Assembly: GCA_003552665.1 (NCBI GenBank)
Contig: PUNW01000392.1
Coordinates: forward strand, 1 to 46,930
Source of the DNA: Spirochaetaceae bacterium
Lineage (GTDB): Bacteria > Spirochaetota > Spirochaetia > DSM-27196 > SLAA01
Direction: 5' to 3'
DNA length: 46,930 nt
A program made the translations under genes and the position numbers. Shown here one piece after another: positions 27,744 to 46,930 of the stretch; the first letter of the stretch is position 1; each line of letters begins with the position of its first letter. Under the pieces are notes generated by a model. The model was given only the letters and a program-made list of their open reading frames with translations. It had not been told where the DNA came from and searched no databases.

Positions 27744-27751
27744 TGTCTCAT

Positions 27752-28722: not shown

Positions 28723-28742
28723 ATCTGCACCTCTTCTCAGCC

Positions 28743-30988: not shown

Positions 30989-31069
30989 CTGACTCCTCCT
31001 TTGACCGGGTTCCTGCCGGTCTTGATCCGAACGCCTGCCTGCGCGCCGTCATAATTCGGGCGATGCGCG

Positions 31070-32713
31070 TCAATGGTGCGCAGGCGGCCCGTCGGCGCCG
31101 GGGACGTTCCCATCGGCATCCGGTACGTCCAGCCACGCCATCATCCCGGCCTCCATGTGCTCCGGAATGTGACAGTGGATCATCCACCGGCCGGGTTGTT
31201 CGACTTCAACCAGAATGTCCCAGGTCTCGCCCACCGGTACGGTAACGGTGTCCTTCCATGCCAGATTGTCGTTGGGAACGCGGTCCTTGGTGATCACGGC
31301 GAAGCGCTGGCCGTGCAGGTGAATGGGGTGGTGCATCGGGTGATCGGAGTCGGCACGATTGTGTATACGGATGACTATCTCGTCACCGGGCTCGGCCCGC
31401 ATTTCGATATCCAGATTCTCCAGCGCCTGGTCGGGCTCCCGCAGTATCCAACGGATATCCTCGGTCGTGCTCATCGCGTTATGCGCTACGTGGTCGTCGT
31501 GCCACTCGATGCCGTCGATCAGGGCAATCTGGTAGAGCGGACCTCCCATCATCCGCATATGCGCGCCATGGACATCCCAGTCCATCCAGATATCGAGGTC
31601 GAGGGTGTAGTCTGGATCCCGACCGCGTGCGGCGGCCAGTCGCTCGCTGTCGACGAGCTCACGCTCTTCCGGCCAGGATGCCTCCCAGCGCGCTTCGTCA
31701 ACATCGCCGGGTGAAACATCAACCCTTGAGAGCACGCGGCGGCCGAGCGGCGCATCGTGCAGCACCCTGACTTCGCCGGATTCGGTATAGAATACGTCGA
31801 CGCTGAAACGTTCGGCAGGGCCGACCATGACCGAGTCGACTTCCTCGGCTCGTTCGTAGGTGCTCAAATCGCTTGCAACCAGCCGCGTGGGCATGCCCTC
31901 GAACCTCACCTTGTAGGGTCGGGCGCTGGCGACGTTGAGGATGTGATAGCGTACGATCTCGCCCGCCTCGGCTTCGAAGCGGTAGTCCTTCTCGCCGTTG
32001 ACGACCACAGTTCCCCCGAAGCGCCCCATCATCGCCATGTTGGTATGCTCGTGCCCGTACGGGAAGATCCTGCGCTCGCCGGTGCCGTAAGCCATGTCCT
32101 CTTCGAAGACGATGTCGTTGATGATGATCGCTTCTTCGCGATCGTAGGAATCATTGCCGCCGGAGTAGTGTCCTTCCTCCGGGTCGTAGACGATAATCAT
32201 CCCGTACAGGCCGAGATCCTGCTGGCGGTCTTCGCGGATATGCGGGTGATACCAGAAGACGCCTTCGTCCGGGAAGGTTACCTGGTACTCAAAGGTCTCA
32301 CCCGGCTCCACCGGATCCTGGGATACGCCGGCGACCCCGTCGAAGCGAATGTCGTGTCGCAGGCCGTGCCAGTGGATGGTAGTCGGTTCGTTCAGATTGT
32401 TCGTGAAAGGGACGGTGATCTCGGCACCGACCGGGACACGGAGTACAGGGCCGGGTATCGACCCGTTGTAGGCGTACGCGCCGGGGATCATTGTCCCCGC
32501 ACCATCGTAGTTCACCGGATCGGCGCTGATCGCGTATTCGTCGCCGTCTGCAAGATCGACGATCTCAACGTCCGTACGCGCCATCTCATCTGTCTCAATG
32601 ATATCGCGTTCCGGCACGATCTCGGGCTGAGGTGCCCCGAGCAGCACGCTCACCTGAGAGCCGGGTAGGAAGGCAATGACACCGAGAAGAAGCCAGATCG
32701 TCCGTAATCTCAT
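31070..32713 (-). CDS. Multicopper oxidase (three-domain, CueO/laccase-like)
   Basis: Four MCO copper motifs are present: HWHG, WYHPH, HPIHLHG and HCHIPEHMEAGMM. The start is set at ATG 32713 (MRLRTIWLLLGVIAF, GGGAGGA SD). Confidence 0.9.
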   Translation of the reverse strand: MRLRTIWLLLGVIAFLPGSQVSVLLGAPQPEIVPERDIIETDEMARTDVEIVDLADGDEYAISADPVNYDGAGTMIPGAYAYNGSIPGPVLRVPVGAEITVPFTNNLNEPTTIHWHGLRHDIRFDGVAGVSQDPVEPGETFEYQVTFPDEGVFWYHPHIREDRQQDLGLYGMIIVYDPEEGHYSGGNDSYDREEAIIINDIVFEEDMAYGTGERRIFPYGHEHTNMAMMGRFGGTVVVNGEKDYRFEAEAGEIVRYHILNVASARPYKVRFEGMPTRLVASDLSTYERAEEVDSVMVGPAERFSVDVFYTESGEVRVLHDAPLGRRVLSRVDVSPGDVDEARWEASWPEERELVDSERLAAARGRDPDYTLDLDIWMDWDVHGAHMRMMGGPLYQIALIDGIEWHDDHVAHNAMSTTEDIRWILREPDQALENLDIEMRAEPGDEIVIRIHNRADSDHPMHHPIHLHGQRFAVITKDRVPNDNLAWKDTVTVPVGETWDILVEVEQPGRWMIHCHIPEHMEAGMMAWLDVPDADGNVPGADGPPAHH

Positions 32714-32822
32714 CTTACGTCCTCCCTGAAGCCGTCCGGCTCGTTCGGGACGAACGGCCTCGAATCGATCCTTAATCTTCCCTGTTGCGCGTTGTCTCTG
32801 GTAAGGCTTTGGGGTAGCTTTT

Positions 32823-32852
32823 ATTATAAAAACAGTCAACAATTTCAGTCAA
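32823..32852 (-). promoter_or_regulatory. Near-consensus sigma70-type promoter of the MCO/oxidase operon, overlapping a conserved 21-bp element
   Basis: The minus strand reads TTGACT (32852-32847), an 18-nt spacer, then TATAAT (32828-32823). The block 32823-32843 recurs, 20/21 identical, at 40570-40590. Confidence 0.5.
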
Positions 32853-32908
32853 GGAATAAATGGCCGTTTGGAGACATCCTCACCGAAGGAGGATGATGGG
32901 GGAGTGTT

Positions 32909-33556
32909 ATGGTAAAAAGAAGCGTATCAATTCTCGCGATCGTGCTGGCGGGAGCGGCGCTTGCCGCCTGCGAAGAGGCCGATGCGGAGCCGGAGGCGGA
33001 CGTCACTGCCTATGTTCTTGCATACCACTGGGGCTTCGCGCTGTTTGATGAAGAGGGACGGGAGCTCGAGAAGTTGGAGGTCCCGCAGGGCAGTACGGTC
33101 GCACTCGTAGCGGTGAACGACCACGCGTTTGATGCCATCAACGAGCTGCCGCAGCCGGTGGCGAATGCAATGCTACAGCTCGATCTGCATGCGCGTGTGC
33201 GGGAGGACATCGAGCAGGGCCTGATCCGGGATCCGGCCGAGTATGGAATGTCGCTCGAGCGTGAGCTCGCGCAGGTGGAAGAGGACGCGGACGACGATCT
33301 GCACCACGACCACGATCACGGCGAGCATGCACATTACCTCGGCGAGGGGCACGAGTACGCGCACAGAGACACCTACATGGATCACGGGCTTCGAATCCCA
33401 GGCTACGACGTCGAGATCGAGAGAATCCCATTCGACGCGCCTCTGCCGAACTTGACGGTCTTCGATGCCGACCGCGAGGGCACGTTTCAGTTCGAGTGCA
33501 CCCAGAGCTGCGGATTCGGGCATCCGCACCCACGAGAAATGCTCGCGGTGCGGTGA
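32909..33556 (+). CDS. Lipoprotein with cupredoxin-like domain carrying a His/Asp-rich insert
   Basis: It has a lipobox (LAGAALAA-C21). Cupredoxin-like strands surround a DDDLHHDHDHGEHAHYLGEGHEYAHRD insert. The C-terminus has CTQSCGFGHPHPREM (C-x3-C-x3-H...M). A GGGGGAG SD precedes it. Confidence 0.6.
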   Translation: MVKRSVSILAIVLAGAALAACEEADAEPEADVTAYVLAYHWGFALFDEEGRELEKLEVPQGSTVALVAVNDHAFDAINELPQPVANAMLQLDLHARVREDIEQGLIRDPAEYGMSLERELAQVEEDADDDLHHDHDHGEHAHYLGEGHEYAHRDTYMDHGLRIPGYDVEIERIPFDAPLPNLTVFDADREGTFQFECTQSCGFGHPHPREMLAVR

Positions 33557-33602
33557 GAGTTTCAGCCCAACTATGGCCCTACCGGGCCGAAGGAGAACGT
33601 AT

Positions 33603-34460
33603 ATGCCATCTCGAGCAACAAAAGCACTCGCAGTCACGATTGCCGCGCCTTTGATTGTGGGGATAGCGGTGTTCGCGGGAATCCGGCTCGCACGCGTGGT
33701 GGAGCGTGCCGAACAGGGCGAACGCGGCGACGAGCTCGAACAGGTTCAGACCGAGGAGGGACAGCTTGCGCTTCAGGAGCCGCTTCAGCACGGCTTCGCC
33801 GAAGAAATCGATCCGCCGGAGCGCGCTGCCGAGTTCACACTGCAGGACCAGTCGGGTGAGACAATAACATTCAGCGAGGACGCCGGCGACGGGGTTGTGG
33901 TGCTCGGCTTCTGGTTGACCCGCTGCACGCATGGCTGCCCGATCAACGCGTACACGGTGGCGCGGCTGCAACAGCTGCTCGAGGACCGGCAGCCGGAGAT
34001 AGCTTCAGACGTCACGTATCTCGCGGTGAGCATAGATCCGGAGCACGACACCCTCGCGGAACGCCGCGAGTTCGTAGACGAGTACCTCGCGGAGTACGGA
34101 GGAGCGGTCCGCTTCCTCGGCGGTGACCGCGAGGAACTCGAGCCGGTCTGGGACGATTATGCGGTATACGTGGAGACCCGCTCTACCGCTGCCGAGCTCG
34201 AGCGCCTGGAAATGACCGAACAGCAGCTTCTTCAACAGACTGAACAGGAAATGCATGGCGGCCATCATGCGGCGGTGCCCGAGGCGGTCCGGCAGGGCGT
34301 GATCGAGGCCGTTGAGCGTGCCGTTGCCGACGATCATCTGGTGGTTCACAACGATGTGATCTACCTGATCAAGGACGGGCAGTTGCGCTACCGCCTGCTC
34401 GGTCACGACATCGATGCGGAAATCGTCGCGGAGAAAATAGCGCGCCTCGCCGGCGGCTGA
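33603..34460 (+). CDS. SCO1/SenC-family copper chaperone / thiol-disulfide oxidoreductase
   Basis: The start is at ATG 33603 (AAGGAGAA SD). It has an N-terminal TM, a thioredoxin-fold CTHGCP (CxxxC) and the downstream conserved His in VVHNDVIYLI. Confidence 0.8.
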   Translation: MPSRATKALAVTIAAPLIVGIAVFAGIRLARVVERAEQGERGDELEQVQTEEGQLALQEPLQHGFAEEIDPPERAAEFTLQDQSGETITFSEDAGDGVVVLGFWLTRCTHGCPINAYTVARLQQLLEDRQPEIASDVTYLAVSIDPEHDTLAERREFVDEYLAEYGGAVRFLGGDREELEPVWDDYAVYVETRSTAAELERLEMTEQQLLQQTEQEMHGGHHAAVPEAVRQGVIEAVERAVADDHLVVHNDVIYLIKDGQLRYRLLGHDIDAEIVAEKIARLAGG

Positions 34461-34471
34461 AACCACACGGG

Positions 34472-37039
34472 TTACTCCAGATGCCGGGCGGGCGAGCGGA
34501 CGTGGTCGCCGCTTACCGGTGACAGCCCCCGGAACTCATCGCGGTAACGCGCAGCGGCCTGCTCGGCTCGATGTTCCTGTGCGTATGCATAGCGGGAGTA
34601 GTAGTGGCCGGCGTGTACGTATTTGAGTTGCGTGGCGGTAAGCTCGGCAAGAAACGGATCATCTTCGGGAGGCAGCGCCTCACGCACTGTGCGATACAAG
34701 CGTTCCCGTCGATCGCCGGTCAGGAAGCGGGGCTCTCCGGCTGCATGGGCGCGGTCGGTACGCGGGGCGACGTACTCCACCCGCGGCATATCGTCGGTGT
34801 TGAGCGGCGCCGCGGCAAAGACTCCTGATGCCGAGAGGTTTCCGACGTAATGGCGGAGAAGCATCGCTTCGTAGTATTCGGAACTTTCTTCGGGGCCGGA
34901 GAATGCGTCCCGGGCTGCGCCGGCGACGACTGAGGGGTCGAACGGATGATCAGCATCGCGATGGCCTACCAGCGCAACGATCGAGGCCGAGGCATAATGG
35001 TCTCCGCGCCAGATCGTCACCCGCGGGAATACCTCGTTCATCGTTCTCGCGATGAAACCCAGTTCGCGTTCGGAGACCTGGTACAGAGGAATCCACTGGA
35101 CATAGATCCCGCCTTCGCGCAGGCGACGGTGTCCGAGCCGGTAATGCTCGAGCGTGTACAAGTTCCCGGTGCCTTGCTTCCAGGGCGTGAACAGGTCGCT
35201 GACGATTACGTCGTACGTGGCGCGACTGCGCATCAGGCAGTTGCGGCCGTCTTCGGCGTGCACCGTGACACGTTCGTCGCCGAAGAGATGGTTGTTCCAC
35301 CGCGAGAACTGCCGTTCAGCGAGGGTGACCACCTCAGGCAGGATCTCACACACAACCACCTCCTCAACCGGGAAGAATAGGGCCGCTCCGGCGGTGATTC
35401 CGGTCCCCATTCCGAGATAGAAAACCCGGCGGGGGGCAGGGTGCTGCAGCAGGGCAACAGCGGTTTGGTTGCGCTCCGGCTCCAGAGAGCCGGAGCTGCC
35501 GAGCGTGTAGTAGTTGTTGACCCGGAGCACTCGGCTGCCGTCCCGGGTGTCGACAGCGGCAACGGTCGCGTGTGACCCTTCGATCCCTTCCACGAGCACT
35601 TCTCCCGGCCGGACGCCGAACGCGATGTTCCGGAGACCCGGCGGCTCGAACCACAGCAGTAGCGCGACCGCTGCCGCCGCAGCCAGGAGTAGCGCCTTGT
35701 TCCGCTTCAATGGAACCGTCGCGGCAAACAACAGCAGCAGCGCCGGATACATCGCGGCGAGCACGAGAAGGCTTCGCCATACTCCGAGGGTCGGGAGCAG
35801 CACGAAGCCACCCGCGAGTGAGCCGGCAATCGCCCCGAGCGTGTCTGCCGAGATGAGTCCTCCAACCGCCGCCCCGGCCGTAGTGTAACCCCGTTCGAGA
35901 AACCGCATCAGATACGGGAGCACCGAGCCGAGGAGAACTCCCGGAAGGAGCATGACCGCTATTGCTACCCCGGCAACCGAAAGCAGGTACGCCGCGAAGC
36001 CTCGCTCGGGGCTAAGGTACGCGAGCCCGTCGGTGGCGCAGTAGAACAGCCAGGGGCTTGCAGCAGCGGCTGCAGCTGCCCCCATCAGGAGCGCAACCAG
36101 AGTGGTCTCCTCCCGAACGCGCGTGAGCCGCGCGAGCAGGTGCGCCGCCACCGCGCCGGTCGCGAGCGAAACGAGAAAGACCGTCAAGACGAGCGCATAG
36201 GTATACGCTGAGTTCTGCAGAACCTGCGCAAACAGGCGTGTCCAGATGACCTCAATTGCGAGCGTCGCAAAGCCGGAGCAGAACGCAACCGTCCGGATTA
36301 TACGTTGTAAGCGCTGCGGCGATCCGGAGCCATGGCCGGCGGCGGTGCGAAGCGGCTGTGAAGTGACAGCGCCTGTAGCGCCTCCAGTGTCGGCGCTTGC
36401 CAATCTCGGGCGCCCCTTCAGCGCTGCGACGAGGCCTACACCGAGATCGAGCACAATCGCGCTCGCATACGCAGCCTGGATGCCGATTACCGGAGGCAGA
36501 ACGAAGCCGGCGGTGAGCGCTCCGCAGGCGGCACCCGCTGTGTTCACGGCGTAGAGCAGAGTTCCGGTGCGTGCAAGCCTCCCACGGCCGCGGATCAGGT
36601 GCTCGCTCATCAGCGGAAGCGTTCCACCGATCAGGAATGCGGTCGGAAAGAGCAGGGTTGCGGCGATTGCGGCTTTGGTGACGCCGTCGAGCACAGCCGA
36701 ATGGCCCACCTGGGCATAGATTAGCGGATAGACCAGGTAGTAGGCGTCCAGCAGCAGAAAATACCCGAGTGCGGTTGCGGCGACGCCGATCTCAAGCAGC
36801 CCGAACCAACGCAGGGCCGACTGAAAACGCCGAGCGCGAGCTCCCCAGAACCGGGCGCCTGCAGCAAGACCGGCGAAGAATATCGCGATCGAAATGGCGG
36901 CTGCCCGCGCCGTGCTTCCGAACAGCATGCCGAGCTCGCGTACCCACAGCACCTGGTACACCAGGGCCGTGAATCCGGAGAGGAAAAACAGCACCAGAAG
37001 CACGGTGTGTTTCTGTGCCGCGCTGCGCTTCGATCTCAT
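34472..37039 (-). CDS. Fused polytopic-membrane / spermidine-synthase-like (class I methyltransferase-fold) protein
   Basis: 855 aa. The N-terminal ~480 aa are polytopic (FFLSGFTALVYQVLWVRELGMLFG). A spermidine-synthase-like domain follows (VFYLGMGTGITAGAAL...YDVIVSDLF). This is the architecture usually annotated as fused MFS/spermidine synthase. Confidence 0.75.
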   Translation of the reverse strand: MRSKRSAAQKHTVLLVLFFLSGFTALVYQVLWVRELGMLFGSTARAAAISIAIFFAGLAAGARFWGARARRFQSALRWFGLLEIGVAATALGYFLLLDAYYLVYPLIYAQVGHSAVLDGVTKAAIAATLLFPTAFLIGGTLPLMSEHLIRGRGRLARTGTLLYAVNTAGAACGALTAGFVLPPVIGIQAAYASAIVLDLGVGLVAALKGRPRLASADTGGATGAVTSQPLRTAAGHGSGSPQRLQRIIRTVAFCSGFATLAIEVIWTRLFAQVLQNSAYTYALVLTVFLVSLATGAVAAHLLARLTRVREETTLVALLMGAAAAAAASPWLFYCATDGLAYLSPERGFAAYLLSVAGVAIAVMLLPGVLLGSVLPYLMRFLERGYTTAGAAVGGLISADTLGAIAGSLAGGFVLLPTLGVWRSLLVLAAMYPALLLLFAATVPLKRNKALLLAAAAAVALLLWFEPPGLRNIAFGVRPGEVLVEGIEGSHATVAAVDTRDGSRVLRVNNYYTLGSSGSLEPERNQTAVALLQHPAPRRVFYLGMGTGITAGAALFFPVEEVVVCEILPEVVTLAERQFSRWNNHLFGDERVTVHAEDGRNCLMRSRATYDVIVSDLFTPWKQGTGNLYTLEHYRLGHRRLREGGIYVQWIPLYQVSERELGFIARTMNEVFPRVTIWRGDHYASASIVALVGHRDADHPFDPSVVAGAARDAFSGPEESSEYYEAMLLRHYVGNLSASGVFAAAPLNTDDMPRVEYVAPRTDRAHAAGEPRFLTGDRRERLYRTVREALPPEDDPFLAELTATQLKYVHAGHYYSRYAYAQEHRAEQAAARYRDEFRGLSPVSGDHVRSPARHLE

Positions 37040-37060
37040 AAGCGTGTGAGAAGAGCGTCT

Positions 37061-38023
37061 TCACCGTAGCGCGAGCCCTATTGCTACGAACACCAGCGGG
37101 AGGTACGTGACCGAAGCGCGTAACAGAAGGCGGGCGTGACGCCTGTCGTAGTGCCTGCAGAGCGAGATAGCCCGGTACGCGAAGCCGATCCAGAGGGCGG
37201 TCGCCGGCAGGGCGTACCAGGGATGTACGAGCTCCAGCGGAACCGGAAGCAGAGAAGCGAGGAGAGTCATTACCGACCAGGCAAGGATCTGCCGCCGCAC
37301 CCGTTGTCCTCCCAGGTCAATGACCGGCAACACCTTCAGATCGGCTCGGCGGTAGTCGCTGAGATTCTTGAGCTGTACTGAATAGAAGTGCGGAAACTGC
37401 CAGGCGAACACGATCGCCGCCAGGGCCCACGCCTCGGCGGACGGCGTCCCGGTCGCCGCGGTCCAACCCACCAGGGGCGGCATTGCCCCGGCAAAGGCTC
37501 CAATTGTGGTGTGTGCAGGGGTTCGCCGTTTGAGGGGGGTATACAGTCCCAGGTATATGATGAGGTTGGCAACCGCGAATACGCCGCACAGAACCCCTAC
37601 CCACAGCGTGAGAATGCCTGTTCCGATCGCCGAAAAGCAGATACCGAACGTAAGTGCGATTTGCGGCTGCATGCGTCCTGACGGCAGCGGTCTGCCGGCG
37701 GTTCGCGGCATCAAGCGGTCGATATCGCGTTCAAGATAGTGGTTCAACGCAAACATGCCGGCGGCGAAAGCCGATACGCCCACTGCAAGCACCACCAAAC
37801 CAAGCCAACCACCCCCCCCGGGCATACGCGACGCTACGCTCCCCGGCCCGGCCTCGATGGTGTCACCGACCCGTGCAGCGATCAGATATGTTCCCAGGGT
37901 AACGAGCAACAGGAGTGTCGCAAGGCGTGGCTTCGTCAGCTCACCGAACGTGGCGAGCGTACGAACGATCGGGACGGTGGTGTCGTCGACCGCACGTGGT
38001 GTCGATCCGATCGTCTCAGACAT
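37061..38023 (-). CDS. ctaB: Protoheme IX farnesyltransferase (heme O synthase)
   Basis: It is a UbiA-family polytopic protein. ELTKPRLATLLLLVT..., ...NHYLERDIDRLMPRTAGRPLPSG... and ...YSVQL...DY... are typical of CtaB/CyoE. Confidence 0.85.
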   Translation of the reverse strand: MSETIGSTPRAVDDTTVPIVRTLATFGELTKPRLATLLLLVTLGTYLIAARVGDTIEAGPGSVASRMPGGGGWLGLVVLAVGVSAFAAGMFALNHYLERDIDRLMPRTAGRPLPSGRMQPQIALTFGICFSAIGTGILTLWVGVLCGVFAVANLIIYLGLYTPLKRRTPAHTTIGAFAGAMPPLVGWTAATGTPSAEAWALAAIVFAWQFPHFYSVQLKNLSDYRRADLKVLPVIDLGGQRVRRQILAWSVMTLLASLLPVPLELVHPWYALPATALWIGFAYRAISLCRHYDRRHARLLLRASVTYLPLVFVAIGLALR

Positions 38024-38037
38024 CTCGCCATCAACCC

Positions 38038-38580
38038 CTAGAACTCCACATCGAACGACGTTCGGGAATCGGTGCCGTGGTCCGAACTGAGATCGTTTGA
38101 CGTTCCGTAAGCGAGCATGAATGTGTGCGTCTCACCGGGGTTGAGAGGATTGTCATACTCATCGCCCGAATCAAGCGGCCGGCGGAAGTGGAGCATCGTT
38201 CCTCCGTCGGTCAGTTCGCCGGCAATGAGCTCGACGTCATCGGTACCCCCGAGCTCGGTATCCGGCCGGTGTGTGGTCAGCTGATCGCCGTAGTGGTCTT
38301 CGATTACGACGTTGCCGTCGTCTTCCACATAGCCGATTATGATGTCGGCACCGCGCATTGTGGCCTCCGGATCAAACCCGACACCGACCCAACCTTGCTC
38401 GGGCGAGGTCACGATGAACTCGGCCATGTCACCGTCCACACGCCATTCCAGCGTCATGTCGATCGCTTCGACGCGCTTGAAGCCCTCATCGGTCTCGGTG
38501 ACCTCCGGCGGCGGGTCGCACGCTGCCACAGCGGCTATGACCGCCGCGAGTAACATAGCTCGGCGCAGGGTAATTCGCAT
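38038..38580 (-). CDS. DOMON-domain lipoprotein (putative extracytoplasmic heme- or ligand-binding)
   Basis: It has a lipobox (AAVAA-C) and an AAGGAGG SD. The beta-sandwich pattern LEWRVDGD...FIVTSP.QGWVGVGF...GADIIIGYV... is typical of DOMON domains. Confidence 0.65.
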   Translation of the reverse strand: MRITLRRAMLLAAVIAAVAACDPPPEVTETDEGFKRVEAIDMTLEWRVDGDMAEFIVTSPEQGWVGVGFDPEATMRGADIIIGYVEDDGNVVIEDHYGDQLTTHRPDTELGGTDDVELIAGELTDGGTMLHFRRPLDSGDEYDNPLNPGETHTFMLAYGTSNDLSSDHGTDSRTSFDVEF

Positions 38581-38768
38581 GCCTTGCCTCCTTTACCGGT
38601 GCATCGCGTTTGATCGTTTGATGGTGTGTCCTGTTCTCCTCCGTTCCACGCATCGATCCAGCCTGCCAGCCTAAAGTTGACTAAAACAGTAACATTATGA
38701 TAACCGGGTTCGGCTGATTTGGCAACTGACCGTAAGACCGTTCGGGAAACCCGGATTCGCTTCACGCT

Positions 38769-39146
38769 TCAGGGCGCGCCCGCGGAGCTGCCCCGGCGGG
38801 CTTCGACGAACGACCTGATCCCCGCAATCAGATAGACCAGCGCGATGACAGCCATAGCGCTCGAGGCCAGCGCGGCGGCATCCGGGCCCGCGAGAAGGCC
38901 GGGAACACCGCGCCCGAGGCCCCCGAGAACCACCAGAAGCGCGAGCGCCATCGCGGCATGCATAAGGTGTTTGCGCCAGGCGGAAACCCGCGCAGCCAGT
39001 ATCCCCAGCGCAGTCAACAGTACGCCCGGACCGGCCGGAATCAGAACTGTCCAATGGGGAGGGGCTCCGGGCTCCATCAGGCCTAAGAACAGCCCGATTC
39101 CGAGCAGAACGAACGCCATACCGGTGATTACTGTCGTTCTCGGCAT
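38769..39146 (-). CDS. Small 4-TM membrane protein, function unknown
   Basis: 125 aa and hydrophobic, with a strong AGGAGGAAGG SD. It lies 45 nt downstream of the hemA stop on the same strand. Confidence 0.55.
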   Translation of the reverse strand: MPRTTVITGMAFVLLGIGLFLGLMEPGAPPHWTVLIPAGPGVLLTALGILAARVSAWRKHLMHAAMALALLVVLGGLGRGVPGLLAGPDAAALASSAMAVIALVYLIAGIRSFVEARRGSSAGAP

Positions 39147-39191
39147 ATTACCTTCCTCCTGAAGAGTTCCGCCGGTGAGCTGCGCTCGGGC

Positions 39192-40442
39192 TCACTCTGC
39201 GCCCCAGTCGTGTTTCCCGGTGTAGTTCCGGGGCGAAGAGGCAGGCGGCTCATGCGCATGAGTCGCGGTGTGGATCATCCGCTGCGTCAGGCTTTCGGCG
39301 AAGCGTCTCAGCTCGCCGGCGTTGCGTTCGTCAAGCGAATGCTCCCAGCGCGCGACCTCCTCCTTGCACACCGAGTGCAGTCGATCACGAAGCCGCTCGC
39401 GCCCCGGTTCATCGCCATCGCCGGAGCGCACGTGCTGCTCGGCGAAGCGCTCCACTGCGGTCTCGATTAACTCTTCAACCTGTGGAACGGCCATCAGGCG
39501 GCGGTCGTAATTGGCATCTACAATCGGACTCACCGATTCGATGCTGTACAGCGCAACGGAACTGAGATCATCGGCCTGCGCTTCCACGATGCGCGGTACG
39601 CTGATATCGATCAGAACGAGCGGGCGTCCGTTTCGGTGTCGATCCAGCGCCTGCAACTGCGTGCGGTTGATCAAATAGCGATTGGCGTACTGCAGGCTGA
39701 GGAACGCAAGGTCGGCTTCGGCAAGCGCAGGCTCGATCTCGTGCAGCCCTGCGATCGATGCGTCCAGTTCTTCGGCAATCGGCAGCGCGTTCTCACGCGT
39801 ACGGTTGGCGACTGTAAGCGAACGAACCTCGCGCTTGCGAAGATAGCGCATGATCTGGGTCGCCATTTTGCCGGCGCCGATTACCAGAGTGCGCTTGTCG
39901 GCCAGCCCATCGCACAGGCGAGCGGCCATCTCCACCGCGGCTACCGAAACCGAAACCGTACCGGCTCCAATCTGAGTCTTGGAGCGAGCCTGTTTGCCGA
40001 TTCTGAAAGCCTCATGGAACAATCGGTTCAGCACCGGGCCGGTTGTGCCGGTGTCGACTGCCTGTCGATAGGCGTCTTTGACCTGCCTGACGATCTCAAC
40101 CTCTCCGACAACCAACGCATCGAGGCTGGTAATCACCCGGAACAGATGCCGTGCGGCTTCGCGTTCGTGGAGACAGTAAAAGGAGTCCTGCCATGGGCGA
40201 ATGTCGACCGCCTTGATCTCGCGAAGGACGCTCCGGACGAACTTGGGGGCTTCGACAGCGGAGCTGCAAACGAGCAGGATCTCGACGCGATTACAGGTGC
40301 TCAGCAGGGCTGCTTCACGAATTCCGGGTTGCTCATAGAGGCGCGTGAGACAGCTCGGCAGCTCTGCTTCGGAGACGGCGATCTGTTCGCGCCTGTCGAC
40401 GTCGAGCGACTTGTGGTTGGCCCCGTACAGGACAAGGGTCAT
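39192..40442 (-). CDS. hemA: Glutamyl-tRNA reductase
   Basis: ALLSTCNRVEILLV contains the catalytic Cys motif. GAGKMA marks the NADPH-binding domain, followed by a C-terminal dimerisation helix. A GAGGGA SD precedes it. Confidence 0.9.
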   Translation of the reverse strand: MTLVLYGANHKSLDVDRREQIAVSEAELPSCLTRLYEQPGIREAALLSTCNRVEILLVCSSAVEAPKFVRSVLREIKAVDIRPWQDSFYCLHEREAARHLFRVITSLDALVVGEVEIVRQVKDAYRQAVDTGTTGPVLNRLFHEAFRIGKQARSKTQIGAGTVSVSVAAVEMAARLCDGLADKRTLVIGAGKMATQIMRYLRKREVRSLTVANRTRENALPIAEELDASIAGLHEIEPALAEADLAFLSLQYANRYLINRTQLQALDRHRNGRPLVLIDISVPRIVEAQADDLSSVALYSIESVSPIVDANYDRRLMAVPQVEELIETAVERFAEQHVRSGDGDEPGRERLRDRLHSVCKEEVARWEHSLDERNAGELRRFAESLTQRMIHTATHAHEPPASSPRNYTGKHDWGAE

Positions 40443-40569
40443 CGCGCATCCCTCGTTGGCCCGTTTGGTACCGGAACTCCAGCGTCTTTTTGGACGGGCA
40501 CCGTCAGCAAAGCTCTATCCCTTACCCGGACAACCGGCCGCGGGATCAGCCCGGGCGTGAACGTCATTG

Positions 40570-40590
40570 ATTATAAAAACACTCAACAAT
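40570..40590 (-). promoter_or_regulatory. Second copy of the conserved 21-bp AT-rich element (contains TATAAT on the minus strand) upstream of hemA
   Basis: ATTATAAAAACACTCAACAAT here compares with ATTATAAAAACAGTCAACAAT at 32823-32843, 20/21 identical. Two of the three preceding bases also match. It lies about 128 nt upstream of the hemA ATG. Confidence 0.45.
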
Positions 40591-40858
40591 AGCGTCTGTG
40601 TACAAGGGTAAAGCACCTTGCGGCGATCTGTCCAACCGGATTTCGTGCTGTGGGCAAATTTCGCCGCTGACATAACGGCAATCATGAGTTCGAGTAGCTG
40701 CGGCGCTTCTGCCGGTGCCGAGAGAATCAGCACCAAAAACGCCATGGGATGCACCCCTTCCGTCTTGGCAGGCTTGTCAAATGACCCTGCACCGGCTATG
40801 GTAGTCCCGCGTGACGGCGTGATTGTCCAGTACCGCCTGAACCGAACGAGAAAACCAA

Positions 40859-43281: not shown

Positions 43282-43305
43282 GGCGCCCCCTACTGTGAAG
43301 GAGTT

Positions 43306-43333
43306 TATGTTATTAACCTAATATGTTATTAAC
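43306..43333. promoter_or_regulatory. Two direct copies of TATGTTATTAAC, candidate operator upstream of nagA
   Basis: The 12-mer occurs at 43306-43317 and 43322-43333, a 16-bp register. Each copy contains the near-palindrome GTTAnTAAC. They lie 25-52 bp upstream of the nagA GTG in an AT-rich patch. Confidence 0.45.
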
Positions 43334-43571
43334 AATAAGGTCTGAAACGAGACCTGTCAAGCGCAAGGTTTGCTGATTATTCTCATCGCATGGTATTAAT
43401 GGCTCAGAGGAGTCAGCAGAAGAGCCTCAATGCCGCGCGGGGGCAGGCAGCGTTATACAGCCGGGGGCGGCCGGCAGGAACGGCTGGTGAACCGGGTGTG
43501 GTGCTCAATCTCGACGAGCGCCGTAACGCGTAAGATGAGCGTCAGGCGGAAGCGGGTCGCAACTCTCTCGG

Positions 43572-44103
43572 CTATGACGTGGATGTGACGCCCGAGTGGC
43601 CGGATTCAATTCTGATAACCCACGGCAATTGCGACGTGTTTCTCGACGCAGCCGCCGCTTCACTGGCCAATCGCAAGTAACCCGTCGAGCGCATCAAACC
43701 TCGAACCGCGCCGACGCGACGGCGCGGCGGTTTTTCGTAGACATTGCCGCTACAACCGTTTATAATATGGACCTTGCTGGCATAGCGTTCGACGATACGG
43801 CCCACCCTGCGGTAGTTCAACTGCCAGATTACGGCGCGGGCATTCGGGCCGGTGTGTTCTCAGGGAGCCCAGACCTGCAGAATGACGAGATCGGCCTCGG
43901 GTAAGAGCGCCGAGATTGCCCTGCTTGGCAGGGCAGGCGATCGTCTGGACGCCGAGTTCCTGAAGCTCGCCACGCCGGCTCGGATCGGAACACCGGGCGA
44001 CGCCGTAGAGCTTGGCACCGGTTCCGGTGAGGCGTTAAGCGAGGATAGATCCGATTTTGCTCGAAGCTCCCACGATCAATACCCGCTTGCCGGTCAGATT
44101 CAT
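43572..44103 (-). pseudogene. Decayed NAD-dependent epimerase/dehydratase (SDR) gene
   Basis: The minus strand from ATG 44103 reads MNLTGKRVLIVGASSKIGSILA, a Rossmann GxxGxxG start, then an in-frame TAA. Similarity continues in shifted frames (...LGVQTIA..., ...EADLVILQVWAP..., ...VHIINGCSGNVYE...). The total length is far too short for the family. Confidence 0.5.
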
Positions 44104-44231
44104 GTGCGCATCTCCTTATTCAGCCCTATGGCCGTATGGTGAGAGAGCAGCAGCTCATTTCGAGCCCTGCCGATCCCCAAAGCTTACGGCAGCAGCGGTC
44201 TGCGCGATACCGGGCGCCTGGCGCTTCGGCC

Positions 44232-44261
44232 CTGAGGAGATGCCGTCTGAGGAGATGCCGT
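44232..44261. repeat. Perfect 15-bp tandem duplication (CTGAGGAGATGCCGT x2)
   Basis: The units are at 44232-44246 and 44247-44261. They are flanked by GCGCTTcGGCC and GCGCTTACGGCC, in the intergenic region upstream of the PilZ multidomain ORF. Confidence 0.9.
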
Positions 44262-44342
44262 GCGCTTACGGCCGTGTTTGTTTGGGTGCTGTTGACCTGA
44301 GTAATCGAACGCATACAATTAAGAACGGGGGACAGCCTAATT

Positions 44343-46930
44343 ATGCGCAGACATGCCAGGATCAGACACCGGGGCTGGGTGGAGTGCGAAACCGGAGACG
44401 GGGTCTACCACGGTAGAGGGGTAGATATCAGCAGCTCAGGCATGCGGCTTGAACTGCCGGACGATGTGGCGCCGCAATCGGTGCGCTTCACCTTACCGGG
44501 AAGCGACCGGTGGCTCAGAATCCCGGTGCGGCCGGTGCGGACCGTCGATTCCGAGAACGAGCGCCGGGTTCAGACAGCGCTCGAGTTCGATTACCACAGC
44601 GAGCTCGATCGCCTCCAGGTCATGGAGTTCGTCCGTGAAGCCTTCTCAGGACGCAACCAACCGGACGCAGCGCGTGACACCCGCAAGTTGCCGCGGGTAG
44701 ATTGCCGCATCGTCGATGTGCAATGTGATCGCCCGGGACTGCAGATCGAATGTATCGACAACATCTCGACCGACGGATTGCAGCTGCGCTTTGCCGGCAG
44801 GTTGCAGGCCGACGAAGCGCTCAGGCTGCGGTTTTGGTTTCCGGGGGACCGGCGGCCGGTCTCGGTGGAAACCGAGGTGATGCATATTCAGACCGAGCGG
44901 TTCGCCGAGTTCTCGGTGGCCGGCCTCGGTATCGTGCAGATCGAGGAGATCGACGCGGCTCGGTTGCGCAACTTCATCGTAGCGCAGAGCTCCGGAACCG
45001 CCCTGCGCTCGGTATTTGAACGTATGGCTCAGCGCACCGAGGGCGCGGACGAGGACGAGTACGCCGTCCCTCCTCACGAGGCTGAAACGCTGCTGCGAAG
45101 TGCCGCCGAACAGGGCGTCGCGGTGCAGCTGATGCTCGACCGGGCGGGCCGTGTCGGGCACACCGAGCTCCTTGCAGCAGGTGAGACGCTGCGGATGAGC
45201 CGGAACGGTTTCGGTGAGCGAGATTCCGCTGCTCCGGGGGCGGTAGCCTACGCAGGGTTGAGCGTTTGCGGCGACAGCGTTTTCTTTCGAAGCACGATCC
45301 GTTCGATTGCTGACGACTATCTGGAGCTGGAATGGCCGCGGGAGATCTACCGGTCGGAGAAACGCGCCGCCGGTCGAGAGGTAAGGCGTGACGACCGGGT
45401 TCATGTGCGCGTTGAGTTCGACCGCCTGCCGGGCCGCACCTTCACCGGACGGGTGCTGGATCTCAGCCGGCGTGGTCTCCGGTGCACGTTCTACTGCGAT
45501 ACCTTTCCGAGCGCTCTATTAGAGGTCGGTGCCGGGCTTCGATTCGACGTAGGCGAGGGGCCGCGGCACGGCGAGTTGCGGCACATCAGCGTTGAGGCGG
45601 TCTCGGAGGGGGTCTCTGTAACGGTCGGCATCGAGACCGACGTAGAGCGCGGAGAGCCTCACATTCAGGCTATTGACCCTGAGACATGGGAGCAGCTGAA
45701 GAGCTCGGGAAAGACAGCCCGTTTGGGCGCCGCTGCGGTCTCAACACCGGTCACCTTCCATGATGCGGCCGGACGGCCGATACGGGCGCTGATCAACGCA
45801 ACGCGCGAGGGCTGTAGCGCCCCGGTGGTCGTTTTGCCGCCGGCGTTTGGGAAGAAGAAGGAGGCATTGGCGCCGCTGGCTGCAGTCCTGATCGCAACCT
45901 TCGTGCGGCACGGGCAGGACTTGATCACGATTCGTTACGACGGCGTTGATCGCCCGGGTGAGAGCTATTCCAGTGTTGAGGCGGTACAGCGCGGCTACGA
46001 CATGCTGCGGTTTAGCATATCGCAAAGTCTCGAAGACCTGCGAGCGACGCTCAGGTTCATTGAATCAACCGACCTGTTCACCGCGCGCGGAGTTGTCCCG
46101 GTGACCTTCAGCATGGCGGCCCTGGAGGGCCGCAAGATCGCACTGGAACCGGGGGTGAGCGTCAATATTCTGGCGTGGGCGAGCGTGATGGGGGTGGCTG
46201 CCGGACAACCGGCGCTCGTCAACACGCTCGGGGGAATAGATCCGGTCGGCAATTTCAAACTGGGGGTTCCCAACGGCATCTGCGGGCTGCTGGGTCACTT
46301 GGTCGATCTGGACGTCATCGCCGAAGATCTGGTTGAACACGGATATGCCGGCAGATCGGATGCGCGCGCCGATATGGCGGGTATCGATATCCCTGTGCTC
46401 TGGATCTACGGCGAGCATGACAAATGGGTTACCGCCGACGATGTTATCGATATCATGAGCATCGCCGCCCCGGCCGAGCGCGAGCTTGTTCGCGTCCCGG
46501 CCGGGCACAACCTGCGCACCAGCGATGATGCCATCGCGACCTTCTCATTGATTGCTGAGTGGCTGTTTGCGAAAGTTCACAGGCGGGAGGTTCAGGCCGT
46601 ACGCCCGGAGCGCGAAGAGCTGCTCGAGATCGTCACCCGCGAACGGGAACGGCTGGAGCGCCGCGAAGACCTCAACGCCGACACCTACTGGGAGCGGTAT
46701 CTCATTGGTGCCGGAGACAGCGGCAGTGGCTATGACGTCTATCGTAATATCGGCGCCTTTCGAGCGTTTCTCGACCGTCAGGTAGTGTTAGCGGCAGTGA
46801 AGCCCGGTGCCCGTGTTGCCGATATCGGCTGCGGCACGGGACTCTTTCTCGAGCGCCTGCTGGTGGACCTGAAAGACCGAATGAGCGACGGGCCGGCGGT
46901 GGAGGTGACTGCGGTTGACCTCGTACCCAA
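44343..46930 (+). CDS. Multidomain protein: three PilZ domains plus an alpha/beta-hydrolase-like domain plus a SAM-dependent methyltransferase domain; 3' end outside the window
   Basis: The frame is open from ATG 44343 to the window edge. I checked codon by codon to about 45420 and read by eye after that. It is absent from the track because it is edge-truncated. PilZ signatures are RRHAR...DISSSG, RKLPR...DNISTDG and RRDDR...DLSRRG. The hydrolase-like part reads VVVLPPAFGKKK...TFSMAA...GEHDKWV...AGHNL. The MTase motif I, VADIGCGTG, is at 46815-46841. Confidence 0.75.
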   Translation, partial: MRRHARIRHRGWVECETGDGVYHGRGVDISSSGMRLELPDDVAPQSVRFTLPGSDRWLRIPVRPVRTVDSENERRVQTALEFDYHSELDRLQVMEFVREAFSGRNQPDAARDTRKLPRVDCRIVDVQCDRPGLQIECIDNISTDGLQLRFAGRLQADEALRLRFWFPGDRRPVSVETEVMHIQTERFAEFSVAGLGIVQIEEIDAARLRNFIVAQSSGTALRSVFERMAQRTEGADEDEYAVPPHEAETLLRSAAEQGVAVQLMLDRAGRVGHTELLAAGETLRMSRNGFGERDSAAPGAVAYAGLSVCGDSVFFRSTIRSIADDYLELEWPREIYRSEKRAAGREVRRDDRVHVRVEFDRLPGRTFTGRVLDLSRRGLRCTFYCDTFPSALLEVGAGLRFDVGEGPRHGELRHISVEAVSEGVSVTVGIETDVERGEPHIQAIDPETWEQLKSSGKTARLGAAAVSTPVTFHDAAGRPIRALINATREGCSAPVVVLPPAFGKKKEALAPLAAVLIATFVRHGQDLITIRYDGVDRPGESYSSVEAVQRGYDMLRFSISQSLEDLRATLRFIESTDLFTARGVVPVTFSMAALEGRKIALEPGVSVNILAWASVMGVAAGQPALVNTLGGIDPVGNFKLGVPNGICGLLGHLVDLDVIAEDLVEHGYAGRSDARADMAGIDIPVLWIYGEHDKWVTADDVIDIMSIAAPAERELVRVPAGHNLRTSDDAIATFSLIAEWLFAKVHRREVQAVRPEREELLEIVTRERERLERREDLNADTYWERYLIGAGDSGSGYDVYRNIGAFRAFLDRQVVLAAVKPGARVADIGCGTGLFLERLLVDLKDRMSDGPAVEVTAVDLVP

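What the first reader, a model, noticed from the sequence alone, without database searches (positions are those of the whole stretch)
44343..46930. Triple-PilZ protein fused to an alpha/beta-hydrolase-like domain and a SAM-methyltransferase domain
A single open frame of at least 862 codons continues past the window. It carries three PilZ signatures with both halves of the c-di-GMP-binding motif:
- RRHAR...DISSSG at the N-terminus
- RKLPR (44682-44696)...DNISTDG
- RRDDR (45384-45398)...DLSRRG

The third is preceded by a YcgR-like N-domain-sized segment. An alpha/beta-hydrolase-like region follows. Its candidate triad elements are TFSMAA, GEHDKWV and AGHNL, and the nucleophile elbow lacks the usual glycines. 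A charged helical linker (RERERLERRED) comes next, then a class I methyltransferase motif I (VADIGCGTG, 46815-46841).

PilZ domains normally regulate partner proteins. Direct fusion of multiple PilZ modules to two enzymatic domains would be a c-di-GMP-gated enzyme of a kind I have not seen described. No diguanylate cyclase or phosphodiesterase is visible nearby.
Basis: partly seen in the sequence, partly recalled or inferred. Interest (0 to 1): 0.65.

Follow-up and report, generated by a model that had tools for sequence, protein, structure and literature searches.

The report
c-di-GMP-sensing thioesterase–methyltransferase fusion enzyme
The gene is real: it encodes a large uncharacterised enzyme in which three c-di-GMP-sensor (PilZ) modules are fused to a LuxD-type acyl thioesterase and a SAM methyltransferase, and its relatives always sit next to a sensor kinase that degrades c-di-GMP, which points to second-messenger control of a small lipid product, possibly a signal.

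Summary
Window 44343-46930 is one open frame of 862 codons. A 96%-identical soda-lake contig continues it to at least 1149 aa.

- **PilZ modules.** Modules 1 and 2 pass Pfam's threshold.
- **Hydrolase.** It is LuxD-type. PDB 1THT is the best sequence and fold match, and Ser590/Asp693/His722 are invariant in about 80 relatives.
- **Methyltransferase.** It is class I and is cut by the window end.
- **Distribution.** The architecture is not unique. There are 442 cluster representatives at E<=1e-30, mostly from Spirochaetota MAGs, and all carry only generic names.
- **Neighbours.** "No phosphodiesterase nearby" is an artefact of the window end. In 49 of 49 related loci with enough downstream DNA, a MASE8-histidine kinase-REC-HD-GYP gene follows. 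It usually comes after an acyl-AMP ligase, an ACP and often a B12 radical-SAM gene.
- **Domain swap.** In Acidobacteriota-type relatives a REC domain replaces PilZ1.

Best reading: a c-di-GMP-gated acyl-ACP thioesterase/methyltransferase making a methylated acyl product, controlled by the neighbouring kinase-phosphodiesterase. It may be an autoinducer-type circuit. I rate it a new variant of a known kind (PilZ-enzyme fusions such as BcsA). Product and c-di-GMP binding are untested.

The parts
44292..44319 (+). Sigma-70-like promoter match (TTGACC-16-TACAAT), followed by a GGGGGA ribosome-binding site about 10 nt before the ATG
   Evidence: Consensus scan; sequence. This is a pattern match only.
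44343..46930 (+). Open reading frame, 862 codons, with its 3' end cut by the window. It encodes PilZ-PilZ-xPilZ-PilZ-LuxD-like hydrolase-methyltransferase.
   Evidence: L005 (93% nt identity) and L089 (96% aa identity) continue the frame to at least 1054 and at least 1149 aa.
44346..44648 (+). PilZ module 1 (aa 2-102): RxxxR = R2..R6, D28-I-S-S-S-G33, C-terminal helix 87-102
   Evidence: Pfam PF07238 at 42.3 bits; motif conservation 61/69 and 60/71; AF2 model.
44679..44987 (+). PilZ module 2 (aa 113-215): R114..R118, N140-I-S-T-D-G145, C-terminal helix 202-215
   Evidence: Pfam at 33 bits; R114 and R118 75/75, G145 75/75; AF2 model.
44994..45353 (+). Helical segment plus motif-less beta-barrel (aa 218-337): a divergent xPilZ / PilZN-like domain
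   Evidence: AF2 helices 218-256 and strands 260-337. Foldseek top hits are two-domain YcgR-like proteins. There is no Pfam hit.
45354..45638 (+). PilZ module 3 (aa 338-432). The conserved RxxxR is R341-A-A-G-R345 (nt 45363-45377) and D373-L-S-R-R-G378 is at nt 45459-45476.
   Evidence: 79/80, 79/80, 79/79, 74/79, 79/79; alignment to PP4397 QRRNAFR / LLDISATG; Pfam sub-threshold at 15.3 bits.
45735..46580 (+). LuxD-type alpha/beta-hydrolase (acyl-ACP thioesterase/acyltransferase-like), aa ~465-746. It carries the invariant PPAFGKKKE (499-507) and the triad Ser590 (nt 46110-46112), Asp693 (46419-46421) and His722 (46506-46508).
   Evidence: Profile versus PDB: 1THT at E 1.9e-5 with Ser and Asp aligned. 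Foldseek of the homologue model: 1THT is top, E 1e-11, TM 0.77-0.79. Invariance. Pfam Acyl_transf_2 is above cut-off in relatives.
46605..46787 (+). Conserved helical linker and methyltransferase N-terminal cap (ERERL ... YWxxYLxG ... GYD)
   Evidence: Invariant columns. The linker is collinear with the PilZ-less Verrucomicrobiota homologue P0006.
46788..46930 (+). Start of the class I SAM-methyltransferase domain, with motif I VADIGCGTG at 46815-46841. The rest lies beyond the window.
   Evidence: D827, G829, G831, T832 and G833 are invariant. Full domains in relatives pass Pfam methyltransferase cut-offs. PDB profile hits are class I methyltransferases.

Best explanation
The gene encodes a protein of about 1155 aa that is both a c-di-GMP receptor and an enzyme.

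**Sensor part.** The N-terminal 450 residues form PilZ, PilZ and a YcgR-like xPilZ-PilZ pair. That gives three c-di-GMP sites.

**Enzyme part.** The C-terminal 700 residues are an old two-domain unit that also exists without PilZ domains:
- A LuxD-type Ser-Asp-His acyl-(ACP) thioesterase/acyltransferase takes an acyl chain off a carrier protein.
- A class I SAM methyltransferase then methylates the released acid, most simply to a methyl ester.

**Cassette, by analogy with all relatives.** The gene heads an operon of acyl-AMP ligase, a dedicated ACP, in many lineages a B12 radical-SAM tailoring enzyme, and a MASE8 membrane-sensor histidine kinase fused to REC and an HD-GYP c-di-GMP phosphodiesterase.

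**Proposed circuit.** The kinase senses a membrane or lipophilic cue. It phosphorylates its own REC domain and so sets local c-di-GMP through HD-GYP. The PilZ modules read that level and switch the enzyme on or off. In Acidobacteriota-type relatives the kinase additionally or instead phosphorylates a REC domain that replaces PilZ1.

**Favoured sub-reading.** The product is a diffusible fatty-acid-derived signal and the kinase is its receptor. That would make a synthase/receptor pair with c-di-GMP as the internal wire, analogous to RpfF/RpfC/RpfG or PhcB/PhcS.

**Shown versus inferred.** Shown: domain identities, motif and triad conservation, gene linkage, the domain swap. Inferred: c-di-GMP binding, the direction of regulation, the substrates, the nature of the product, and the presence of the downstream genes in this particular genome.
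For: - PilZ modules and motifs.
- LuxD-type hydrolase with invariant triad. Pfam Acyl_transf_2 is above cut-off in relatives.
- Complete methyltransferase in near-identical contigs.
- Linkage: 49 of 49 loci with at least 6.5 kb downstream carry the HK-REC-HD-GYP gene on the same strand. 33 are ligase-ACP-rSAM-HK, 9 are ligase-ACP-HK and 7 are HK only.
- Gene junctions mostly overlap by 4-8 nt.
- ACP GIDSL motif 51/51.
- Kinase H-box 53/53, HD 52/53, GYP in 52/53 (strict HHExxDGxGYP-type pattern 48/53, four further with a variant residue).
- No other conserved neighbour and no GGDEF nearby.
- REC replaces PilZ1 in relatives whose gene overlaps the kinase gene.
- The PilZ-less core (about 565 aa, Verrucomicrobiota) is collinear with the window family. 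It is also coupled to a 7TM histidine kinase, next to a FadL-type channel and further kinases.
- RpfG-type REC-HD-GYP proteins are kinase-dependent c-di-GMP phosphodiesterases (bioRxiv 10.1101/2021.11.05.467447).
Against: - The window ends before the downstream genes. The two near-identical contigs (L005, L089) end early too, so the operon is inferred from relatives of 63% identity or less.
- PilZ3 fails the Pfam cut-off.
- The window's hydrolase segment is itself below the Acyl_transf_2 cut-off (16 versus 20.3 bits).
- Methyltransferase matches are generic. The best named ones (DVU_1556, CpaM, BioC) are far below their cut-offs, so O-methylation of a carboxylate is a guess.
- No family member comes from a cultured, studied organism, and every name is generic.
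- Kinase linkage fits a homeostatic lipid-remodelling loop as well as a signalling loop.
- Homology to PhcB could not be tested.
- Expression evidence is weak: a few short metatranscriptome contigs, which could be contaminating DNA or a close relative's transcript.
Confidence: 0.55

Rival explanations
1. Envelope or lipid remodelling rather than signalling. The cassette makes a modified (methylated or methyl-branched) acyl chain for a membrane lipid or lipoprotein. The MASE8 kinase senses membrane state and tunes the enzyme through c-di-GMP as a homeostatic loop.
For: - MASE8 is an integral-membrane sensor with no known ligand.
- The B12 radical-SAM partner is nearest to lipid-associated families: HpnJ at 1e-31 and 'lipid biosynthesis B12-binding/radical SAM protein'.
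- No exporter or FadL-type channel is conserved next to the Spirochaetota cassette.
Against: - No acyltransferase to a lipid acceptor, glycerol-phosphate enzyme or lipoprotein gene is conserved nearby.
- The PilZ-less relatives sit beside a FadL-type hydrophobic-compound channel and three kinases, which looks more like signal traffic.
- The radical-SAM gene is missing from the window's closest relatives (L001, L007, L065).
Confidence: 0.25
2. BioC/BioH-like 'cap and uncap' chemistry. The methyltransferase methylates the free carboxyl of an ACP-bound dicarboxylate. The hydrolase is a methyl-ester carboxylesterase that removes the cap after elongation, as in pimeloyl-ACP synthesis.
For: - JGI's automatic names say 'UbiE / pimeloyl-ACP methyl ester carboxylesterase'.
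- There are weak BioC (E 3e-9) and BioH (E 0.002-0.004) matches.
- A ligase and an ACP lie in the cassette.
Against: - The BioC and BioH scores (37 and 17-18 bits) are far below the cut-offs of 185 and 207.
- The best sequence and fold match of the hydrolase is the thioesterase LuxD, not BioH.
- There are no biotin genes nearby.
- Variants without the ligase and ACP exist.
Confidence: 0.08
3. The PilZ modules are structural or protein-interaction domains that no longer bind c-di-GMP. The enzyme is regulated otherwise, or not at all.
For: - Some PilZ-type domains have lost binding (bioRxiv 10.1101/814665).
- Module 3 is below the Pfam cut-off.
- The spacing from R345 to D373 is 28 residues, against 22 in modules 1 and 2 (sequence).
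Against: - Both motif halves are conserved in 86-100% of about 80 relatives in all three modules.
- The same review states that PilZ domains in fusion proteins retain their motifs.
- The invariable neighbour is a c-di-GMP phosphodiesterase.
Confidence: 0.07
4. Assembly or frameshift artefact: separate PilZ, hydrolase and methyltransferase genes have been fused by error.
For: The window and its closest relatives are metagenome assemblies.
Against: - The same uninterrupted architecture appears in 82 independent loci and in hundreds of cluster representatives.
- Independent runs cover the gene without indels.
Confidence: 0.01

Closest known systems
BcsA cellulose synthase and Alg44 (PilZ domain fused to, or part of, an enzyme complex)
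   Same: A canonical PilZ domain with RxxxR and [D/N]hSxxG sits in the same polypeptide as the catalytic machinery, and c-di-GMP gates catalysis allosterically (bioRxiv 10.1101/814665). BcsA PilZ structures appear among the Foldseek matches.
   Different: The output here is a soluble thioesterase plus methyltransferase acting on small acyl substrates, not a membrane glycosyltransferase. The PilZ modules number three, are N-terminal, and include a YcgR-like pair.
YcgR / PP4397 / PlzD / MotI / PlzA (xPilZ-PilZ two-domain c-di-GMP receptors)
   Same: Residues about 218-432 model as a motif-less barrel followed by a canonical PilZ, with the RxxxR in the connecting loop. These proteins are the best sequence-profile and fold matches.
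   Different: Those proteins are stand-alone adaptors that act on partner proteins. Here the pair is one module of a 1150-aa enzyme. The Pfam YcgR/PilZN models do not match.
LuxD, the myristoyl-ACP thioesterase/acyltransferase of the lux operon (PDB 1THT; Pfam Acyl_transf_2)
   Same: It is the best PDB match by profile (E 1.9e-5) and by fold (E 1e-11, TM 0.77-0.79). The nucleophile elbow lacks the glycines, and the Ser and Asp are aligned. In the lux operon LuxD also works beside an adenylate-forming enzyme, LuxE (own knowledge).
   Different: Identity is about 15%. There are no lux genes. The domain is fused to a methyltransferase and to sensor domains. It carries the family-specific invariant PPAFGKKKE segment.
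RpfF / RpfB / RpfC / RpfG (DSF signalling in Xanthomonas)
   Same: A fatty-acid signal synthase that uses acyl-ACP, an acyl-AMP-forming ligase, a hybrid sensor kinase and a REC-HD-GYP c-di-GMP phosphodiesterase are encoded together, and the sensor controls the synthase. The RpfG part comes from bioRxiv 10.1101/2021.11.05.467447; the rest is own knowledge.
   Different: RpfF has a crotonase fold, not a LuxD-methyltransferase. RpfC and RpfG are separate proteins, whereas here kinase, REC and HD-GYP are one polypeptide. RpfF has no PilZ domains. The resemblance is functional, not by descent.
PhcB / PhcS (methyl 3-hydroxymyristate or 3-hydroxypalmitate quorum sensing in Ralstonia)
   Same: A SAM-dependent methyltransferase makes a fatty-acid methyl ester signal and is encoded next to its sensor kinase (PMC6580516; PMC8578825).
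   Different: Homology was not tested because no PhcB sequence was available. No hit in any search carried that name. PhcB is not reported to carry PilZ domains.
PilZ-less LuxD-methyltransferase proteins of Verrucomicrobiota (P0006 family, about 565 aa; uncharacterised)
   Same: They are collinear homologues of the enzyme core, including the ERERL linker. They are also translationally coupled to a membrane histidine kinase.
   Different: They have no PilZ or REC input and no insertion in the methyltransferase. Their kinase is HisKA_7TM-GAF without HD-GYP, and a FadL-type channel lies nearby.

Membership tests
PilZ domain (Pfam PF07238) | Profile score above the gathering cut-off of 22.5 bits | tested here: met
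   Module 1 scores 42.3 bits and module 2 scores 33 bits. Module 3 scores only 15.3 bits, so this feature is not met for module 3.
PilZ domain (Pfam PF07238) | RxxxR motif in the N-terminal loop | tested here: met
   R2/R6 (61/69), R114/R118 (75/75) and R341/R345 (79/80) in the family alignment. The module 3 motif aligns with the RRxxxR of PP4397.
PilZ domain (Pfam PF07238) | [D/N]hSxxG motif | tested here: met
   D28-I-S-S-S-G, N140-I-S-T-D-G and D373-L-S-R-R-G. D/N is present in 60/71, 73/76 and 79/79; G in 60/71, 75/75 and 79/79.
PilZ domain (Pfam PF07238) | Six-stranded beta-barrel fold | tested here: met
   The AF2 model (pLDDT 68) shows four barrels. Foldseek matches PilZ and YcgR-type structures at probability 1.0. 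Model confidence is moderate.
PilZ domain (Pfam PF07238) | Binds c-di-GMP | not testable with these tools
   Needs DRaCALA, ITC or a co-crystal.
YcgR-like xPilZ-PilZ receptors (PilZN, Pfam PF07317) | Match to the PilZN/YcgR N-domain profile | tested here: not met
   No Pfam family was found for aa 226-335. Only fold-level resemblance exists. It is best called a divergent xPilZ domain.
LuxD / Acyl_transf_2 (Pfam PF02273; NCBIfam LuxD) | Profile score above the cut-off (20.3 bits Pfam; 420 bits for the NCBIfam equivalog) | tested here: inconclusive
   The window segment scores 16 bits, below the cut-off. Relatives are above the Pfam cut-off: P0004 21.3, L072 26.8, P0056 27.4, P0006 77.3. All are far below the LuxD equivalog cut-off. 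That makes it a superfamily relative, not a LuxD orthologue.
LuxD / Acyl_transf_2 (Pfam PF02273; NCBIfam LuxD) | Ser-Asp-His triad at the LuxD positions | tested here: met
   Ser and Asp align with 1THT. S590, D693 and H722 are invariant. The His alignment rests on the fold match.
LuxD / Acyl_transf_2 (Pfam PF02273; NCBIfam LuxD) | LuxD-like fold | tested here: met
   1THT is the top Foldseek hit of the homologue model: E 1e-11, TM (target) 0.77-0.79, rmsd 3.9 Å.
LuxD / Acyl_transf_2 (Pfam PF02273; NCBIfam LuxD) | Acyl-ACP thioesterase/acyl-transfer activity | not testable with these tools
   Needs an enzyme assay.
Class I SAM-dependent methyltransferase | Motif I (DxGxGxG) and a full Rossmann-like domain above Pfam cut-offs | tested here: met
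   Motif I is invariant. Full-length relatives pass Methyltransf_11/12/23/25/31. The window copy is truncated and sub-threshold, and it is completed in L089.
BioC / BioH pair | Scores above the equivalog cut-offs (BioC 185, BioH 207 bits) | tested here: not met
   BioC scores at most 37 bits and BioH at most 18 bits.
PhcB-type signal methyltransferase | Sequence homology to Ralstonia PhcB | not tested
   No PhcB sequence could be obtained from the tools, and no hit carried that name.
RpfG-type REC-HD-GYP phosphodiesterase (partner gene in relatives, not in the window) | HD and HHExxDGxGYP motifs after a REC domain | tested here: met
   Pfam HD_5 at 1e-35 and Response_reg at 1e-24. The motifs are present in 52 of 53 partners. 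This was tested on relatives only, because the gene lies outside the window.

The most novel reading that the evidence does not exclude
The cassette is a self-contained cell-cell signalling circuit of a new type. The PilZ-gated LuxD-methyltransferase would be an autoinducer synthase for a fatty-acid methyl-ester-like signal. The MASE8-kinase-REC-HD-GYP protein would be its receptor. c-di-GMP, or phosphotransfer in the REC-bearing variants, would be the wire that feeds receptor state back onto the synthase. That would make signal synthesis itself a direct c-di-GMP output, in a system widespread in uncultured Spirochaetota, Desulfobacterota and Acidobacteriota.
Probability: 0.25. Interest if true: 0.8.

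Novelty: new variant of a known kind. Interest (0 to 1): 0.62.

Why it matters
Known enzymatic outputs of PilZ-mediated c-di-GMP control are mostly exopolysaccharide synthases, plus motility and transcription adaptors.

Here a large, unannotated family puts three c-di-GMP sites directly on an acyl-thioesterase/methyltransferase. The family has 442 cluster representatives at E<=1e-30. Its gene is always welded to a kinase-HD-GYP gene.

If confirmed, it would add small-lipid or signal biosynthesis to the direct outputs of c-di-GMP. It would also offer a natural case where PilZ and REC inputs are interchangeable on the same enzyme, and a compact synthase-sensor-phosphodiesterase loop that can be rebuilt in vitro.

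The PilZ-less Verrucomicrobiota relatives, also coupled to a kinase, would become candidates for a new autoinducer synthase family.

Tried and rejected
- **Word-indexed protein search.** With the whole protein it gave only 6 hits, and with the hydrolase profile only fragments. This badly under-reports the family. The genome scan and the exhaustive HMMER search showed it is large.
- **Downstream genes of this strain.** L005 and L089 (93-96% identical) also end inside or just after the gene. The operon therefore had to be inferred from relatives.
- **PhcB homology.** The papers I searched or opened give no domain detail beyond 'SAM-dependent methyltransferase', and no search hit is named PhcB. 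This stays untested.
Rejected as the c-di-GMP motif of module 3.
- **BioC/BioH reading.** Rejected as a membership claim.
- **Diguanylate cyclase near the cassette.** A GGDEF motif occurs in 1 of 85 sources.
- **Other conserved neighbours.** None beyond the 4-5 gene cassette.
- **Literature.** No paper describes a PilZ-thioesterase-methyltransferase architecture.
- **Methyltransferase substrate class.** It could not be narrowed. PDB and NCBIfam matches are generic.


Full report
**1. The observation**

Window 44343-46930 translates without a stop for 862 codons and runs off the window. ATG 44343 is the first possible start after the upstream in-frame stop. It is preceded by a GGGGGA ribosome-binding site and a sigma-70-like TTGACC-16-TACAAT match at 44292-44319.

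Two soda-lake contigs carry near-identical copies. L005 is 93% identical in DNA and L089 is 96% identical in protein. They continue the frame to at least 1054 and at least 1149 residues. L089 ends in GEPPQAVV, about eight residues short of the C-terminus of the homologue P0001. The fusion is therefore real, and the full protein is about 1155 aa.

**2. The sensor half**

Scanned separately, module 1 (aa 2-97) and module 2 (aa 113-212) pass the Pfam PilZ cut-off of 22.5 bits, at 42.3 and 33 bits. Module 3 reaches only 15.3 bits.

I aligned 82 family sequences taken from related loci. Both motif halves are conserved in all three modules:
- Module 1: R2/R6 in 61 of 69; D/N28, S30 and G33 in 60 of 71.
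- Module 2: R114/R118 in 75 of 75; N/D140 in 73 of 76; G145 in 75 of 75.
- Module 3: R341 and R345 each in 79 of 80; D/N373 in 79 of 79; S375 in 74 of 79; G378 in 79 of 79.

The true motif of module 3 is EKRAAGR, seven residues upstream.

A profile of residues 215-452 finds the YcgR-like c-di-GMP receptor PP4397 in the PDB (E 0.004). It places EKRxxxR on PP4397's QRRNAFR and DxSxxG on LLDISATG.

An AlphaFold2 model of residues 1-455 has a mean pLDDT of 68 from a shallow alignment. It shows:
- two canonical PilZ barrels, each with a C-terminal helix;
- a helical segment (218-256) followed by a motif-less barrel (260-337);
- a fourth barrel (354-432), with the RxxxR loop disordered.

Its 17 best Foldseek matches in the PDB are all two-domain YcgR-type receptors: PP4397, PlzD, YcgR, MotI, MrkH and PlzA, at E 1e-7 to 5e-5. 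So the architecture is PilZ-PilZ-(xPilZ-PilZ). The xPilZ barrel does not match Pfam's PilZN model.

**3. The enzyme half**

So is a family signature, PPAFGKKKE (499-507).

A profile of this region finds one significant PDB sequence: 1THT, the myristoyl-ACP thioesterase LuxD (E 1.9e-5). LuxD's nucleophile segment AASLSAR aligns with TFS(M/L)SA, and its Asp segment aligns with G-x-x-D-x-W-V.

The AF2 model of the full-length homologue P0001 (63% identical, pLDDT 73) has 1THT as its best Foldseek match (E 1e-11, TM 0.77-0.79).

Pfam Acyl_transf_2 is below its cut-off on the window segment (16 versus 20.3 bits) but above it in several relatives. The elbow without glycines is therefore a LuxD family trait, not a defect.

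A conserved helical linker (ERERL ... YWxxYLxG) leads into a class I methyltransferase whose motif I is invariant. In full-length relatives the domain passes several Pfam methyltransferase models. It carries an insertion of about 110-150 residues after strand 2.

Its nearest named relatives are generic: PDB 3MGG, LahSB and MitM; NCBIfam DVU_1556, CpaM and BioC. All are far below the family cut-offs. The atom that gets methylated is not established.

**4. The family and its neighbours**

The word-indexed search found only six relatives. That was a sensitivity artefact:
- A scan of species-representative genomes found 87 relatives. Most are Spirochaetota MAGs from soda-lake and other sediments. 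Others are Desulfobacterota, Acidobacteriota/Aminicenantes and Myxococcota.
- An exhaustive HMMER search found 442 cluster representatives at E<=1e-30.
- Names are only 'methyltransferase domain-containing', 'PilZ domain-containing', 'UbiE' or 'hypothetical'.

Across the fetched loci the downstream genes are strikingly constant. All 49 loci with at least 6.5 kb of downstream sequence carry, on the same strand, an ~850-aa MASE8-HisKA-HATPase-REC-HD-GYP protein:
- 33 loci have acyl-AMP ligase, ACP, B12-binding radical SAM, then the kinase.
- 9 loci have ligase, ACP, then the kinase. These include the window's closest relatives L001, L007 and L065.
- 7 loci have the kinase alone.

Further details:
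- Junctions mostly overlap by 4-8 nt.
- The ACP keeps its GIDSL attachment site in 51 of 51.
- The kinase keeps its H-box (53/53), HD (52/53) and GYP motifs (52/53; 48/53 by the strict HHExxDGxGYP-type pattern, four more with a variant residue).
- No other gene is conserved around the cassette.
- GGDEF genes are absent.

**5. Two comparative observations on mechanism**

First, in the Acidobacteriota, Aminicenantes and Myxococcota relatives a REC receiver domain replaces PilZ1, giving REC-PilZ-xPilZ-PilZ-hydrolase-methyltransferase. There the gene overlaps the kinase gene directly, and no ligase or ACP is present. An input domain for phosphotransfer swapped for an input domain for c-di-GMP, next to a protein that is both a kinase and a c-di-GMP phosphodiesterase, argues that this neighbour controls the enzyme.

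Second, the two-domain core exists without any PilZ in an abundant Verrucomicrobiota family of about 565 aa. It is collinear with the window family through hydrolase, linker and methyltransferase. There too it is translationally coupled to a membrane (HisKA_7TM) kinase and flanked by a FadL-type hydrophobic-compound channel and further kinases. A LuxD-methyltransferase enzyme paired with a membrane kinase is thus older than the PilZ fusion.

**6. Most likely mechanism**

The LuxD-type domain takes an acyl chain from a carrier protein. The source is FAS acyl-ACP or, where present, the cassette's own ACP loaded by the ligase and possibly tailored by the radical-SAM enzyme. The methyltransferase methylates the released acid, most simply to a methyl ester.

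The three PilZ sites make the enzyme's activity depend on c-di-GMP. The neighbouring kinase sets that level through its REC-activated HD-GYP domain. RpfG-type REC-HD-GYP proteins behave this way (bioRxiv 10.1101/2021.11.05.467447).

Which way c-di-GMP acts is unknown. So are the chain length of the substrate and what the product does. I favour a diffusible lipid signal with the kinase as its receptor, by analogy with RpfF/RpfB/RpfC/RpfG and with PhcB/PhcS (PMC6580516, PMC8578825). A homeostatic membrane-lipid modification fits the linkage data nearly as well.

**7. Comparison with known systems and novelty**

PilZ fused to catalytic machinery is known: BcsA, Alg44 and Pkn1 (bioRxiv 10.1101/814665). 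The principle is therefore not new. The output (thioesterase plus methyltransferase), the triple sensor, the obligatory kinase-HD-GYP partner and the PilZ/REC swap are not described in any paper I could find. I rate it a new variant of a known kind.

**8. Limits**

- The downstream genes of this very strain were not recovered.
- The structure models rest on shallow alignments.
- Expression evidence is limited to a few short metatranscriptome contigs of 90-97% identity. One runs past the window end in the expected frame.
- Nothing biochemical is known for any member.

Noticed in passing
window 43282-44342: About 1 kb upstream of the gene holds only gene remnants. One is a minus-strand SDR/epimerase-like N-terminus (MNLTGKRVLIVGASSKIGSILA, then a stop) near 44040-44105. 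Another is a fragment at 43534-43692 that matches part of an intact 248-aa glucosamine-6-phosphate-deaminase-like ORF in L005. L005 has about 3.1 kb where the window has about 250 bp.
   Followed up: partly
window ~25500-40700: A 15-kb block has no counterpart at the corresponding place in the 93%-identical contig L005, so it looks like a strain-variable island for copper handling and aerobic respiration. It encodes CopC-CopD, haem-copper oxidase subunit I, a multicopper oxidase, SCO1/SenC, an 855-aa spermidine-synthase-like protein, a UbiA prenyltransferase, a DOMON protein and glutamyl-tRNA reductase.
   Followed up: partly
window 1-18000 versus 18000-46930: G+C rises from about 0.55-0.57 to about 0.60-0.65 around 18 kb.
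   Followed up: no
L070-L082 (Acidobacteriota, Aminicenantes, Myxococcota loci): In these relatives a REC receiver domain replaces the first PilZ. The gene overlaps the kinase-HD-GYP gene by 4-8 nt, and there is no ligase or ACP.
   Followed up: yes
L004, L085-L088 (Verrucomicrobiota loci): PilZ-less LuxD-methyltransferase proteins of about 565 aa are abundant in Opitutaceae. They sit in a conserved block: response-regulator kinase, FadL/Toluene_X channel and a kinase on one side; a HisKA_7TM kinase and a 446-aa GAF-like protein on the other. This looks like an uncharacterised lipid-signal locus in its own right.
   Followed up: partly
window 44740-46927 (run X6): An alkali-sediment metatranscriptome holds short contigs 90-97% identical to the gene. 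One continues past the window end and encodes KALESARRKA, as in L089. This is weak evidence of transcription of this gene or a close relative.
   Followed up: partly
representative proteins P0082, P0088, P0092 and similar (about 810-845 aa): A shorter architecture class is common among the representatives: one xPilZ-PilZ pair, the hydrolase, and a methyltransferase without the insertion. Another class of about 1030-1080 aa lacks only PilZ1.
   Followed up: partly
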